From Escherichia coli (lineage in GTDB: Bacteria > Pseudomonadota > Gammaproteobacteria > Enterobacterales > Enterobacteriaceae), in assembly GCF_050320075.1 (NCBI RefSeq), contig NZ_CP190018.1: DNA of 64,000 nt; one strand, given 5' to 3'. Shown here in pieces: positions 44,895-48,962 of this stretch. The position numbers and the translations under genes are program-made. Numbering within the stretch: the first letter of the stretch is position 1; each line of letters begins with the position of its first letter. Below the pieces are notes generated by a model. It saw nothing but the letters and a program-made list of their open reading frames with translations. It did no database searches and had not been told where the DNA came from.

Positions 44895-47800
44895 TTAGTC
44901 AAACGGCGGTGGGGCCAGCACTTCACGATTACCGTTGTGCCCCTGTTCGCTGACAATCCCCTGCGCTTCCATCTGTTCGATAATACGCGCTGCACGGTTA
45001 TAACCAATGCGGAACTGACGCTGTACGCCAGAAATTGATGCTTTGCGTTTTTCAGTGACAAACTGCACCGCCTGATCGAACAACGGATCCAGCTCTTCAG
45101 CGCCATCGAAACCGCCCGCGCCACCTTCGCTTTCACTGTCGGAGGTGATGCCATCAACATACTGTGGGCGACCACGCGCTTTCCAGTCCTGCACCACGGC
45201 ATGAACTTCCTGATCGCGAACAAAAGCACCATGAACACGTACCGGCAACGTGGAGTTCGGCCCAGAGTAAAGCATATCCCCCATACCCAGCAGTGATTCC
45301 GCGCCAGCCTGATCAAGAATGGTACGTGAGTCAATCTTACTGGATACGGTAAAGGCGATACGGGTCGGAATATTCGCTTTAATCAGACCAGTAATAACAT
45401 CAACCGATGGACGCTGCGTTGCCAGTACGAGGTGGATACCCGCGGCACGGGCTTTTTGCGCCAGACGTGCTATAAGCTCTTCCACTTTTTTACCTACCGT
45501 CATCATCAGGTCGGCAAATTCGTCCACCAACACCACAATGTACGGTTCTTTTTTCAGCACCGGATGCTGGGCATCCATACTGTCACCCGGCTTCCAGTAC
45601 GGGTCTGGAATCGGACGCATCATGCGATCGGCTTCAGCAATTTTTTCGTTATAACCCGCCAGATTACGCACACCTAGGGCGGACATCAGCTTATAACGAC
45701 GTTCCATTTCATTTACGCACCAGCGCAAAGCGTTGGCAGCATCTTTCATGTCGGTAACGACTTCCGTTAACAGATGCGGAATGCCTTCATAAACCGAAAG
45801 CTCCAGCATTTTCGGGTCGATCATGATGAAACGCACATCTTCTGGCTGTGCTTTATAAAGCATGCTCAGGATCATCGCGTTCACCCCGACAGACTTACCG
45901 GAACCGGTAGTCCCCGCAACCAACAAGTGCGGCATTTTCGCCAGATCGGCAACCACCGGCTCACCGGCGATATCTTTACCCAGCACCACGGTTAATGGCG
46001 ACGGATTATCGCGGAATTTGGCGTTATCCAATACTTCGCGCAGATAAACGGTTTGTCGTTTTTTATTCGGTAACTCCAGACCTACATAGGGTTTGCCAGG
46101 AATAACTTCAACGACACGCACCGCCACCGTCGAAAGTGAACGGGCAAGGTCCCGTGACAAGTTAGAAATGCGCGCCGCTTTTACGCCCGGTGCCAGGTTA
46201 AGTTCAAAGCGAGTGATAACCGGCCCCGGAGAGTAATTGACGACATCGGCTTTAATACGGAAATCAGCCAGACGCGCTTCCACCAGACGCGCCATTTGTT
46301 CAAGCGCAAAGGTATCTACCGGCTCCACTTCGCTCGGCGGCGGTGTCAGCAAATCCAGAGAAGGCAGCGGCGTCGTCGGTTTATGCAACGGACGGCTGTC
46401 ACCATTGCGCATCAACAGCGGATGAAGCAGGGTATCATGCGGCTGCGGCGCAACTGGCTGTTGCGGCTGCTGATATTGCGGCTGCTGTGCAACCGGCTGT
46501 TGCGGCTGCTGATATTGCTGCTGCGGCGCAACCGGTTGTTGTGGCTGCTGATATTGCTGCTGCGGTGCAACCGGCTGTTGCGGCTGCTGATACTGCGGCT
46601 GCGGCGCAACTGGTTGCTGCGGCTGCTGATACTGTTGCTGCGGTGCAATCGGTTGTTGCGGCTGCTGTACAGGTTCAACAATTGGCGTAAACAACGGTTC
46701 GTGTGGACCATCATCCAGCAACGCTTTCATTGGCGAAAATTCAAAATCATCCAGCGTGAACGGATTCGCCCCAGCCGGTTGTTCGCCGGAATAACGTTGT
46801 TGTTGAGTTTGCGCAAACTGACGAGCCAGTTCAGCCTCTGCCGCAGCATCTGCATCTTCTGCGTTCACGGGCACATCATGTTGATACTGTTCGCCATAGC
46901 GTTGCTGCTGTGTCTGGGCGAACTGACGTGCCAGTTCATCCTGCTGCATCGCATCGATTTCATCATCGTTATACTGATCGCCGGAATCGTACTGATTGCG
47001 CTGAGCTTCACGGGCTTTTTCTTCTGCCGCACGCTGTGAGGGCAGCTTAATACCGTAAGACGCCAGTTCACGACGAGTTGGCACGCGGATACGTTTCGGT
47101 CGTGGCAACTGCGGGCCAATCCCCTCTTTGACCTGTGGACGCGGTCCAGCGCTATTTGCCAGACTGAAGACTGGCGCGGCAACGGTTGCGGCAGCCCCCG
47201 TCGCCAGTGTCGCTTTTTTCACGCCAGATGCCAGAGGGGAAACAGCGGCAGCGGCTTCCACTGGAGGTACTGCTGCAACAGAAGGTGTTTTCAGCGAAGA
47301 TTTGATCGGTTCTGGTTCTTTAACCGGTTCAGGAATCGGTTGATACCAGGCCGCAAGTTGTTCACGTTCACGGGCACGCTTCTCTTCCACTTCTTCAAAA
47401 TAGTAAAGCGGCGGACGCGCGGGTTTTGTCTCTTCTACAACGGGTTCAGGCTCCACAACAGGCTGCTGTTCAACAGGTTGCGGCTGTTGGTACAACGGCT
47501 CCTGAGCGACTGGCTGCTGATAAGTTTGCTCAGTCTGGTATGTAGACTGTGGAGCAAAAGTGGATTGCTGCTCTTCGGCTTGCCAGGCGTTACCTGCCAC
47601 CGATTGTTCTGGCGCAGGGGCGTAATACGACTGTTGCGCAGACTGTTCCGGCGCAGTTGCGTAATACGGCTGCTGAACAGGTTGTTCCGCCGCAGGAGCG
47701 TAGTAAGGTTGTTGCACAGGTTGTTCCGCTGCTGGCGCATAATACGGCTGCTGTGGCTGTACAGGTTGTTGCAGCGGCTCATTATATTGCACTGCAGGCT

Positions 47801-48962
47801 GCGCATATTGTGGCTGCTGTGGGTAACCTTCCTGTGCAGGAGCAATAACCGGCTCTCCCGTTTGTGGCCCCGGTACAGGCTGCCAGGCTACTGTAGGTTG
47901 TGCAGGTGGAACATCAACAGAGGCAACAGGCGGCGTCTGAGTCACAGGTTCAACCGGCGCAGCCCAGCTTTGTGTCGCCGTGGTAGCAGCAGCTGCTACA
48001 GCAACAGGTTCGGTAATTGGCGCACCGTTTAATAATGGATCGTATTCGTCATATTCTGGCTGCGTTGCACGATTGCCCGAAAAGAGGACGTCGTCCGGGT
48101 CGGCAGCCACACCGCGTGCAGTGTAGGTAATCTCTTCTTCATCATCCATCCGCTTACCGGAGAACAACGCAGCATCTGTTTGCCGCCCCATCGGATTAAT
48201 GAATTTTTCCGCCAACCGTTTACGACGCGCTAACGCGCCGCGAAGAATACGGGCACGGCGTGATTCATGCTGTTTGCCGTGATTTTCATCTTCATACTCT
48301 TCGTCGTCTTCATACTCATCTTCATCGACCCAGGTATCATCGCGACGGGTACGATTACTGGCGAAGGTGAGAATGTTTAAAATCCAGCCGCCGAGTTTTT
48401 CAGCAATGGTCACCCATGACCAACCGGTGAACAGCGTCAGACCCGCAGCCCAAACGCAGAGCAGCGCAATAGTTCCCCCGCTACTGTGTAGCAGTGGTTG
48501 TAGCGTAGTGCTTAGTAAGCTGCCAATGACGCCACCGGAGGCAAAATACCAGATATCGTCAGCGTTGATTGCCGCCAGACCACAGGAGGTAAGGATGAGC
48601 GCCAAAACGCCAATGATGCGTAGCGAAACGGCAAAATAATCAATGTATTCGTCGCTGGACTGATGACGCCAGGCAAACCAACAACCGCCGACAATAATGA
48701 CGGGAATGGTGTAAGCCATCACGCCAAAAATAAAGAACAGCGTATCTGCCAGCCATGCACCGGGCATCCCACCTAAATTATGGATAGGTTCATGCCAGGC
48801 CGTTTGCGACCAGCTGGGGTCCGAAGGGTTAAAGCTTAGTAAGGCAGCCATCAACCAGACGGCAAACAGGACAATAAGGATCAGCAACGCCTCCAGAAGG
48901 CGGCGGCCGCTACTTAACTTTGTCAATGTGACTTCTTTGTCTTCAGTGTATTCCTGGCTCAA
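44895..48962 (-). CDS. ftsK: DNA translocase FtsK
   Basis: 1355-aa ORF; N-terminal TM domain, long Pro/Gln-rich linker with tandem peptide repeats, C-terminal motor with Walker A GTTGSGKS and gamma domain. Confidence 0.96.
46440..46680 (-). repeat. Tandem ~39-bp coding repeats in the ftsK linker
   Basis: Repeated CTGCTGATATTGCTGCTGCGG-type units visible in the DNA, encoding about six [13 protein letters not shown] repeats. Confidence 0.85.
47575..47790 (-). repeat. Second tandem coding repeat block in the ftsK linker
   Basis: Repeated GGCGCAGGGGCGTAATACGGCTGCTG-like units encoding about four [13 protein letters not shown] repeats. Confidence 0.8.

What the first reader, a model, noticed from the sequence alone, without database searches (positions are those of the whole stretch)
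46440..47790. Repeat-length variation in the FtsK linker
The ftsK ORF here is 1355 aa, and the DNA shows two blocks of near-perfect tandem repeats (about six 39-bp units encoding [13 protein letters not shown] and about four encoding [13 protein letters not shown]). From memory K-12 FtsK is about 1329 aa, so the difference is probably repeat copy number. Such in-frame minisatellites are slippage-prone and alter the unstructured linker joining the membrane anchor to the motor.
Basis: partly seen in the sequence, partly recalled or inferred. Interest (0 to 1): 0.25.

Follow-up and report, generated by a model that had tools for sequence, protein, structure and literature searches.

The report
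Known 39-bp repeat polymorphisms in ftsK
The cell-division gene ftsK here is 26 amino acids longer than in E. coli K-12 because one of its two in-frame 39-bp repeat arrays has four units instead of two; both arrays are long-known strain-typing markers, so this is ordinary variation.

Summary
ftsK (window 44895-48962, minus strand, TTG start) encodes 1355 aa and K-12 encodes 1329. There are two in-frame 39-bp arrays in the Pro/Gln-rich linker. Array A (46438-46667) has 5.9 units at 87% DNA match. Array B (47598-47753) has 4 units at 76% match.

The whole 78-bp difference from K-12 lies in array B (4 units against 2). Array A has the same copy number in both.

Neither array is new. Published MLVA primers map perfectly around them: CVN001 and ms07 flank array A, and ms06 flanks array B. 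The window's 379-bp ms06 amplicon is the top of the published 301-379 bp range. The Salmonella counterpart is STTR7/SENTR2.

In systematic samples of 5,426 complete E. coli genomes, array B has 4, 3 or 2 units in about 35%, 33% and 28%. Array A has mostly 6 or 7 units. Gene length runs from 3795 to 4146 bp.

Unit-level DNA shows how alleles arise. K-12's two B units equal units 1 and 4 of a 4-unit allele exactly. Three-unit alleles carry perfect hybrid units. One strain has an exact 78-bp duplication.

Alleles are constant within lineages, always in frame, and have no shown phenotype. This is already known and of low interest.

The parts
44895..48962 (-). ftsK coding sequence, 1355 aa plus stop, TTG start; DNA translocase FtsK
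   Evidence: ORF list. Pfam finds FtsK_4TM at aa 20-191, FtsK_alpha at 866-966, FtsK_SpoIIIE at 974-1187 and FtsK_gamma at 1290-1350. The sequence is 100% identical to the annotated ftsK of E. coli CFSAN061763.
46368..48389 (-). Linker region (aa 192-865) between the membrane anchor and the motor; 13.9% Pro and 15.6% Gln
   Evidence: Boundaries from the Pfam domains; composition computed. The review PMC5357621 describes it as an unstructured Pro/Gln-rich linker.
46437..46667 (-). Array A: 5.9 units of 39 bp encoding [10 protein letters not shown](Q/P)QY (aa 766-842). This is VNTR locus CVN001 / ms07. Copy number is the same as in K-12.
   Evidence: TRF; units read in frame; primer mapping; comparison with K-12.
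47598..47753 (-). Array B: 4 units of 39 bp encoding [17 protein letters not shown] units (aa 404-455). This is VNTR locus ms06, allele 4. K-12 has 2 units.
   Evidence: TRF; units read in frame; primer mapping; alignment gap against K-12.
47628..47705 (-). The 78 bp (aa 420-445, two units) present here and absent from K-12. The exact placement within the array is arbitrary because of the repeat.
   Evidence: The gap in alignment A1 falls at columns 420-445. K-12's units equal u1 and u4 of a 4-unit allele.
46336..46355 (+). CVN001 reverse primer site; the ms07 reverse primer overlaps it at 46341-46360
   Evidence: Perfect matches. Primer sequences come from PMC8143711 and PMC8215070.
46762..46780 (-). 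CVN001 forward primer site. The amplicon 46336-46780 is 445 bp, giving allele (445-250)/39 = 5.
   Evidence: Perfect match; sizing formula from PMC8143711.
46908..46927 (-). ms07 forward primer site; amplicon 46341-46927 is 587 bp
   Evidence: Perfect match.
47485..47504 (+). ms06 reverse primer site
   Evidence: Perfect match.
47844..47863 (-). ms06 forward primer site. The amplicon 47485-47863 is 379 bp, the upper end of the published 301-379 bp range (alleles 2, 3, 4).
   Evidence: Perfect match; published size range and alleles from PMC8215070.

Best explanation
These are two in-frame 39-bp minisatellites in the disordered Pro/Gln-rich linker of FtsK. They are already used as MLVA typing loci: array A is CVN001/ms07 and array B is ms06. 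The window carries a common allele pair, B = 4 units and A = about 6 units. K-12 carries B = 2 and A = about 6, which accounts for 1355 against 1329 aa. Copy number changes when 39-bp units misalign, through replication slippage or unequal sister-strand exchange. This removes or duplicates whole units, so the frame is always kept. Within E. coli, the shorter B alleles, including K-12's, are deletions from a 4-unit form. Shown here: the arrays, their polymorphism, the deletion and duplication junctions, and their identity with the known markers. Inferred: that slippage or unequal exchange is the molecular route, and that the variation is neutral or nearly so, changing only the length of a flexible tether.
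For: A single 26-aa gap in array B explains the whole length difference from K-12. In 10 fully compared alleles, every difference in gene length equals the sum of the two arrays' differences. The published ms06, ms07 and CVN001 primers match perfectly around the arrays. PMC11773471 assigns CVN001 (printed there as CNV001) to ftsK. The ms06 size range and alleles 2-4 match. The Salmonella 39-bp ftsK VNTR STTR7/SENTR2 is documented. Population samples give gene lengths of 3990, 4029, 4044, 4068, 4107 and 4146 bp. Array B has 4, 3 or 2 units in 21, 20 and 17 of 60 genomes. Array A has 6 units in 22 of 60, 8 units in 5 and 5 units in 1; another 28 were unresolved, and 3 of 3 spot checks among them were 7 units. 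Junction evidence: K-12 u1 and u2 equal A16 u1 and u4 with 0 of 39 differences; 1919D3 u3 is a perfect u3|u4 hybrid; Ec-FL1-1X u1 is a perfect u1|u2 hybrid. GPEC874 has an exact 78-bp duplication in array A. Alleles are constant within lineages: all K-12 derivatives and all O157:H7 rows have the same sizes. An isolate whose array A is reduced to one unit still has an intact 1264-aa ORF. Swapping an 84-bp ftsK repeat indel between two S. Enteritidis strains did not change survival in egg white.
Against: No phenotype was tested here, so neutrality rests on the range of alleles seen in natural isolates and on one Salmonella experiment in a single condition. According to the review PMC5357621, linker mutations increase filamentation and parts of the linker contact FtsQ, FtsL, FtsI and FtsZ, so some dependence on length cannot be excluded. 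Differences among units are about 2:1 synonymous to non-synonymous. That points to purifying selection on the peptide unit, so the sequence is not entirely free to drift. The direction of change across Escherichia species is unclear, because outgroups have 2, 4 or 5 B units and no clear unit-by-unit orthology. The allele frequencies come from score-ranked systematic samples of a database biased toward clinical strains.
Confidence: 0.93

Rival explanations
1. Linker length is functionally tuned. Different unit numbers would set the reach or divisome contacts of the FtsK motor and be kept by selection in different lineages.
For: Linker mutations increase filamentation and linker segments contact divisome proteins, as summarised in the review PMC5357621. 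Differences among units are mostly synonymous, 32:14 in array A and 33:17 in array B. Arrays with a 13-aa period persist in Escherichia, Salmonella, Citrobacter, Kluyvera and Superficieibacter. Most alleles fall in a narrow range of 1329-1381 aa.
Against: The two arrays vary independently, and the 10 compared alleles show no sign of length compensation. A natural isolate lacks 5 of about 6 A units and still has an intact gene. Klebsiella, Enterobacter and Kosakonia mostly lack such arrays. An allele swap in Salmonella gave no phenotype in the one condition tested.
Confidence: 0.1
2. Alleles spread mainly by homologous recombination between strains, importing whole ftsK segments, rather than by copy-number change within each lineage.
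For: Variant units are shared in mosaic fashion. The window and Ec-FL1-1X share the Ser-containing units u3 and u4 but differ in u1 and u2. The same overall gene length arises from different A/B combinations.
Against: Hybrid units and an exact 78-bp duplication are direct signatures of misalignment within the array. Recombination can move alleles between strains but cannot create new copy numbers. This explanation complements the main one rather than excluding it.
Confidence: 0.3
3. The length difference is an artefact, caused by a different start-codon call or by collapse or expansion of repeats during assembly.
For: Repeat arrays can be misassembled, and a few outgroup assemblies show broken reading frames in the linker (L059, L085).
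Against: All 14 alleles examined use the same TTG start and have a single terminal stop. The window's array-B region is at least 99% identical in 135 independent complete genomes. The allele sizes match PCR-measured MLVA sizes.
Confidence: 0.02
4. The arrays form a contingency (phase-variation) locus that switches FtsK function on and off at high frequency.
For: Tandem repeats inside a coding region are the usual basis of phase variation.
Against: The unit is 39 bp, a multiple of 3, so every change keeps the frame. All alleles seen are intact. The units are imperfect: the longest in-register perfect match is 28 bp in A and 14 bp in B. Sizes are invariant across K-12 laboratory derivatives and across the O157:H7 genomes sampled.
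Confidence: 0.01

Closest known systems
CVN001 (generic E. coli MLVA, Lindstedt et al. 2007) and ms07 (Shigella/E. coli MLVA panel)
   Same: This is the same locus as array A. Both primer pairs match the window perfectly around 46438-46667, the repeat unit is 39 bp, and the locus is assigned to ftsK in PMC11773471.
   Different: Nothing differs. The window is simply CVN001 allele 5 (445-bp amplicon), the same size as K-12.
ms06 (Shigella/E. coli MLVA panel)
   Same: This is the same locus as array B. The primers match perfectly at 47485-47504 and 47844-47863, the unit is 39 bp, and the published alleles are 2, 3 and 4 with amplicons of 301-379 bp.
   Different: Nothing differs. The window is allele 4 (379 bp). 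K-12's 2-unit array corresponds to 301 bp.
STTR7 / SENTR2, the 39-bp VNTR in Salmonella enterica ftsK
   Same: It is a 39-bp in-frame PQ repeat in the same part of the FtsK linker as array A, polymorphic between serovars and strains. S. enterica subsp. arizonae has about 5 [13 protein letters not shown] units at the array-A position.
   Different: In the one Salmonella genome examined, no 13-aa periodic array was detected at the array-B position. The published S. Enteritidis reference has 9.3 copies.
Other in-frame VNTRs in flexible regions of envelope and division proteins, such as tolA (CVN004 in E. coli, SENTR1 in Salmonella)
   Same: These are also coding, in-frame tandem repeats that vary in copy number between strains and are used for MLVA.
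   Different: They are in a different gene with different unit lengths (15 bp and 45 bp).

Membership tests
FtsK/SpoIIIE DNA translocase (E. coli-type FtsK) | N-terminal 4TM anchor, alpha/beta motor with P-loop, and C-terminal gamma domain | tested here: met
   Pfam hits above the curated cut-offs: FtsK_4TM (E 5e-42), FtsK_alpha (1e-29), FtsK_SpoIIIE (9e-88) and FtsK_gamma (3e-28). The protein is 99% identical to K-12 FtsK. The gene order lrp-ftsK-lolA-rarA is the same as in K-12.
VNTR / minisatellite typing locus (ms06, ms07/CVN001) | Head-to-tail tandem array of a fixed unit length (39 bp) | tested here: met
   TRF finds period 39 with 5.9 and 3.8 copies. Lag-39 identity is 0.875 and 0.76 against a background of 0.27.
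VNTR / minisatellite typing locus (ms06, ms07/CVN001) | Copy number polymorphic among strains in whole units | tested here: met
   Array B has 2, 3 or 4 units and array A has 1 to 8 units across E. coli genomes.
VNTR / minisatellite typing locus (ms06, ms07/CVN001) | Published locus-specific primers flank the array | tested here: met
   All six primers, plus the ECMLV4 pair, match with 0 mismatches and in the correct orientation. The amplicons are 379, 587 and 445 bp.
Contingency / phase-variation locus | A change in repeat number switches expression or reading frame on and off | tested here: not met
   The unit is 39 bp, a multiple of 3. All 14 alleles examined have an intact ORF.
Contingency / phase-variation locus | Hypermutability visible within clonal lineages | tested here: not met
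   All sampled K-12 derivatives (MG1655, DH1, C600, XL1-Blue, NEB 5-alpha, MC1061) and all sampled O157:H7 genomes have identical array sizes. This was judged only from sampled genomes; no mutation rate was measured.

The most novel reading that the evidence does not exclude
The most novel reading not excluded is that the 13-residue unit is a selected structural or spacing module of the FtsK tether. Unit number would then be under stabilising selection and would subtly tune how the DNA motor is coupled to the closing septum. Lineage-specific alleles would differ in chromosome dimer resolution or division timing.
Probability: 0.07. Interest if true: 0.35.

Novelty: already known. Interest (0 to 1): 0.08.

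Why it matters
It matters little beyond bookkeeping. It shows that FtsK length in E. coli is allele-dependent, about 1264-1381 aa in the genomes examined. The commonly quoted K-12 length of 1329 aa is the shortest of the common classes and carries a derived 78-bp deletion. Total length is a poor proxy for allele identity, because different A/B combinations give the same length. In practice, these arrays explain why ftsK lengths differ between annotations, and they can be read directly from genomes as in-silico MLVA alleles (here ms06 = 4 and CVN001 = 5). If linker length had a phenotype it would bear on how the motor is tethered to the septum, but nothing here suggests that it does.

Tried and rejected
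1. Full-text searches for 'FtsK linker' with 'repeats', and for 'FtsK', 'linker' and 'PQ-rich', returned nothing. The primary paper on the linker's functional regions (Dubarry 2010, PubMed 21091498) is not held, so functional statements rest on the review PMC5357621.

2. Sizing array A with the window's own sequence as query failed for longer alleles, because insertions were split into separate places. Re-querying with an 8-unit allele resolved the 5-, 6- and 8-unit alleles, but one-unit differences remained split. Three spot checks all gave 7 units.

3. I tried to set the direction of array-B change using other Escherichia species. Copy numbers were 2, 4, 4, 5 and 2, and no unit-by-unit orthology to E. 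coli u1-u4 could be established. The claim that shorter alleles are deletions therefore rests on hybrid units within E. coli only.

4. I tested whether arrays A and B derive from one 13-aa motif. The best cyclic identity was 5 of 13, no better than composition-matched shuffles, so this was rejected.

5. Plus-strand ORFs over the arrays (46296-47039, 46343-46690, 47340-48032) were considered and dismissed as by-products of low-complexity repeats on the antisense strand of a well-supported gene.

6. Start-codon or annotation differences were rejected as the cause of the length difference, because all alleles share the same TTG start.

Full report
**The observation.** The window holds a 4068-bp ORF on the minus strand (44895..48962, TTG start, 1355 aa). 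Pfam finds the complete FtsK architecture: 4TM at aa 20-191, alpha at 866-966, FtsK_SpoIIIE at 974-1187 and gamma at 1290-1350. The ORF is 100% identical to the annotated ftsK of E. coli CFSAN061763 and matches ftsK in 5,425 of 5,426 complete E. coli genomes. Tandem Repeats Finder reports two 39-bp arrays. Array A lies at 46438-46667 with 5.9 copies, 87% matches and score 334. Array B lies at 47604-47750 with 3.8 copies, 76% matches and score 161. Read in frame, array A encodes [10 protein letters not shown](Q/P)QY units (aa 766-842), and array B encodes exactly four [17 protein letters not shown] units (aa 404-455). Identity at a lag of 39 bases is 0.875 and 0.76 inside the arrays against 0.27 in the rest of the gene. 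The repeats are real. They are near-perfect only as protein: DNA units differ at 2-11 of 39 positions.

**Comparison with K-12.** MG1655 ftsK (b0890) is 3990 bp, or 1329 aa. The protein alignment has the same start, 99% identity, and a single gap of 26 aa at columns 420-445, inside array B. K-12 therefore has two B units where the window has four. Array A spans 78 aa in both strains.

**What it is.** Both arrays are established typing markers. The 39-bp locus CVN001 of the generic E. coli MLVA scheme is assigned to ftsK in PMC11773471. Its published primers (PMC8143711) match the window perfectly at 46336-46355 and 46762-46780, around array A. The amplicon is 445 bp, which gives allele (445-250)/39 = 5. 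The ms07 primers of the Shigella/E. coli panel flank the same array (46341-46360 and 46908-46927). The ms06 primers flank array B (47485-47504 and 47844-47863) and give 379 bp. That is the top of the published ms06 range of 301-379 bp, with alleles 2, 3 and 4 (PMC8215070). K-12's 2-unit array would give 301 bp. In Salmonella the counterpart is the 39-bp VNTR STTR7/SENTR2 in ftsK (PMC2430564), described as a variable PQ repeat region (PMC8627665).

**Population picture.** An evenly spaced sample of 40 of the 5,426 genomes gave ftsK lengths of 3990 (11 genomes), 4029 (6), 4044 (2), 4068 (7), 4107 (12) and 4146 bp (1); the 40th hit covered only 62% of the query and was not sized. Ten alleles spanning these classes were read in full. 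Every length difference equals the sum of the two arrays' differences. Array B spans 33, 46 or 59 aa, and array A spans 65, 78, 83, 91 or 104 aa. All alleles start with TTG and are intact.

- Array B, sample of 60: 21 genomes have 4 units, 20 have 3, 17 have 2, and 2 have odd partial-unit alleles.
- Array A, sample of 60: 22 have about 6 units (as in the window and K-12), 5 have 8, 1 has 5, 3 have odd sizes, and one O157:H7 row was only partially aligned and not sized. Another 28 were unresolved by the method, and all 3 spot checks among them were 7-unit alleles.

The window's allele pair is therefore common and unremarkable. K-12's length is the shortest of the common classes. Total length misleads: Ec40743 is also 1355 aa but has 3 + 7 units, and 372_BP0083 is 1329 aa like K-12 but has 3 + 5 units. 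At the extreme, urine isolate 25403 has an intact 1264-aa FtsK with array A reduced to a single unit. These frequencies come from score-ranked samples of a database biased toward clinical strains and are approximate.

**Mechanism.** Unit-level DNA shows the events directly.

- K-12's two B units are identical (0 of 39 differences each) to units 1 and 4 of the 4-unit allele of strain A16. This is a clean loss of 78 bp.
- The third unit of the 3-unit allele in 1919D3 is a perfect hybrid of u3 and u4. Three other strains (AHB10, Ec40743, 372_BP0083) carry a closely similar third unit.
- The first unit of Ec-FL1-1X is a perfect hybrid of u1 and u2. This is an independent loss of 39 bp.
- GPEC874 carries an exact two-unit (78-bp) duplication in array A. 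This fits TRF's slightly better score at period 78.

These are the expected products of misalignment between units, by replication slippage or unequal sister-strand exchange. The choice between those two routes is inferred, not shown. Because the unit is 13 codons, the frame is always kept.

The arrays are not hypermutable. The longest in-register perfect match is 28 bp in A and 14 bp in B. All sampled K-12 laboratory derivatives and all sampled O157:H7 genomes have the same sizes. Homologous recombination between strains probably also moves alleles around, since variant units are shared in mosaic fashion, but it cannot create new copy numbers.

**Function.** Both arrays lie in the linker (aa 192-865), which is 13.9% Pro and 15.6% Gln against 5.7% and 3.1% in the rest of the protein. 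The review PMC5357621 describes this region as unstructured and variable in length and composition between species. The same review states that linker mutations increase filamentation and that parts of the linker contact FtsQ, FtsL, FtsI and FtsZ. The only direct test found was in S. Enteritidis: exchanging an 84-bp ftsK repeat indel between two strains did not change survival in egg white (PMC6137255). Differences among units are about 2:1 synonymous to non-synonymous, 32:14 in A and 33:17 in B. That suggests the peptide unit is conserved even though its copy number is free to vary. My reading is that this is length variation of a flexible tether with little or no phenotypic effect. That reading is inferred.

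**Beyond E. coli.** A degenerate pattern for the conserved [10 protein letters not shown] motif between the arrays retrieved 92 loci from species-representative genomes, nearly all Enterobacteriaceae. Array B occurs in every Escherichia species hit: E. albertii has 4 units, E. whittamii 5, SCPM-O-B-8794 has 4, and E1V33 and MOD1-EC7003 have 2 each. The units have turned over too much to assign orthology with E. coli u1-u4. Array-A-type PQ repeats occur in S. enterica subsp. arizonae (about 5 units) and in many Citrobacter (about 3-9 units). Kluyvera and Superficieibacter have 13-aa arrays with other unit sequences at the array-B position, reaching about 14 units. Klebsiella, Enterobacter and Kosakonia mostly show no 13-aa periodicity. 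The units of arrays A and B are not detectably related to each other.

**Verdict.** The feature is a pair of already-described VNTR loci carrying common alleles. Novelty: already known. Interest: low.

Noticed in passing
window 46791-46937 (-), FtsK aa 676-724: A third, non-tandem duplication sits in the linker. The motif [14 protein letters not shown] occurs twice, 35 aa apart (aa 676-689 and 711-724), between arrays B and A. It is the same in K-12.
   Followed up: no
window 48285-48326 (-), FtsK aa ~213-226: TRF reports a weak 6-bp periodic tract (7 copies, 66% matches) that encodes the acidic run [13 protein letters not shown] just after the membrane domain. It showed no length variation among the 10 alleles compared.
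   Followed up: partly
L105 (NZ_CP134387.1, pMTY11352_3, 88,440 bp): A record labelled as a plasmid carries the chromosomal block cydC-cydD-trxB-lrp-ftsK-lolA-rarA-serS. Eight ftsK matches in the collection sit on 'plasmid' records. These are either excised chromosomal segments or F-prime-like elements, or assembly or labelling problems.
   Followed up: partly
L102 (E. coli 25403, NZ_CP195555.1): This natural urine isolate has array A collapsed to one unit (FtsK 1264 aa, intact). The loss is 195 bp, the same size as the in-frame deletion reported for an S. Typhimurium MLVA type in PMC8627665.
   Followed up: partly
L007 (AHB10), L103 (ZJ3920), and Nissle 1917 / APEC O1 rows: Some alleles carry a partial-unit 15-bp insertion (an extra PQYQQ) in array A, giving gene lengths off the 39-bp ladder (for example 4044 bp). 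L104 (L7_E1373 ETEC) has a 12-bp partial-unit deletion in array B.
   Followed up: partly
L041, L092, L096, L099 (Kluyvera spp. and relatives); L012, L043 (Superficieibacter): At the array-B position these genera carry long 13-aa arrays with different units: QPQQPAYEQPQYA, up to about 14 units, in Kluyvera, and QPQYQPYAEPPVA in Superficieibacter. The Kluyvera unit resembles the E. coli array-A unit (9 of 13 matches after rotation). The Superficieibacter unit resembles the array-B unit (8 of 13). The statistical support is weak.
   Followed up: partly
L059 (Enterobacter sp. EA-1), L085 (Leclercia adecarboxylata NCTC13032): The open frame around the conserved linker motif is very short in these records (56 and 264 codons). 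This suggests frameshifts or sequencing errors in the ftsK linker of those assemblies.
   Followed up: no
window 46296-47039 (+), 46343-46690 (+), 47340-48032 (+): Long antisense ORFs with repetitive L/R-rich or A-rich translations run over both arrays. They are by-products of the codon-periodic repeats, not evidence of genes.
   Followed up: no
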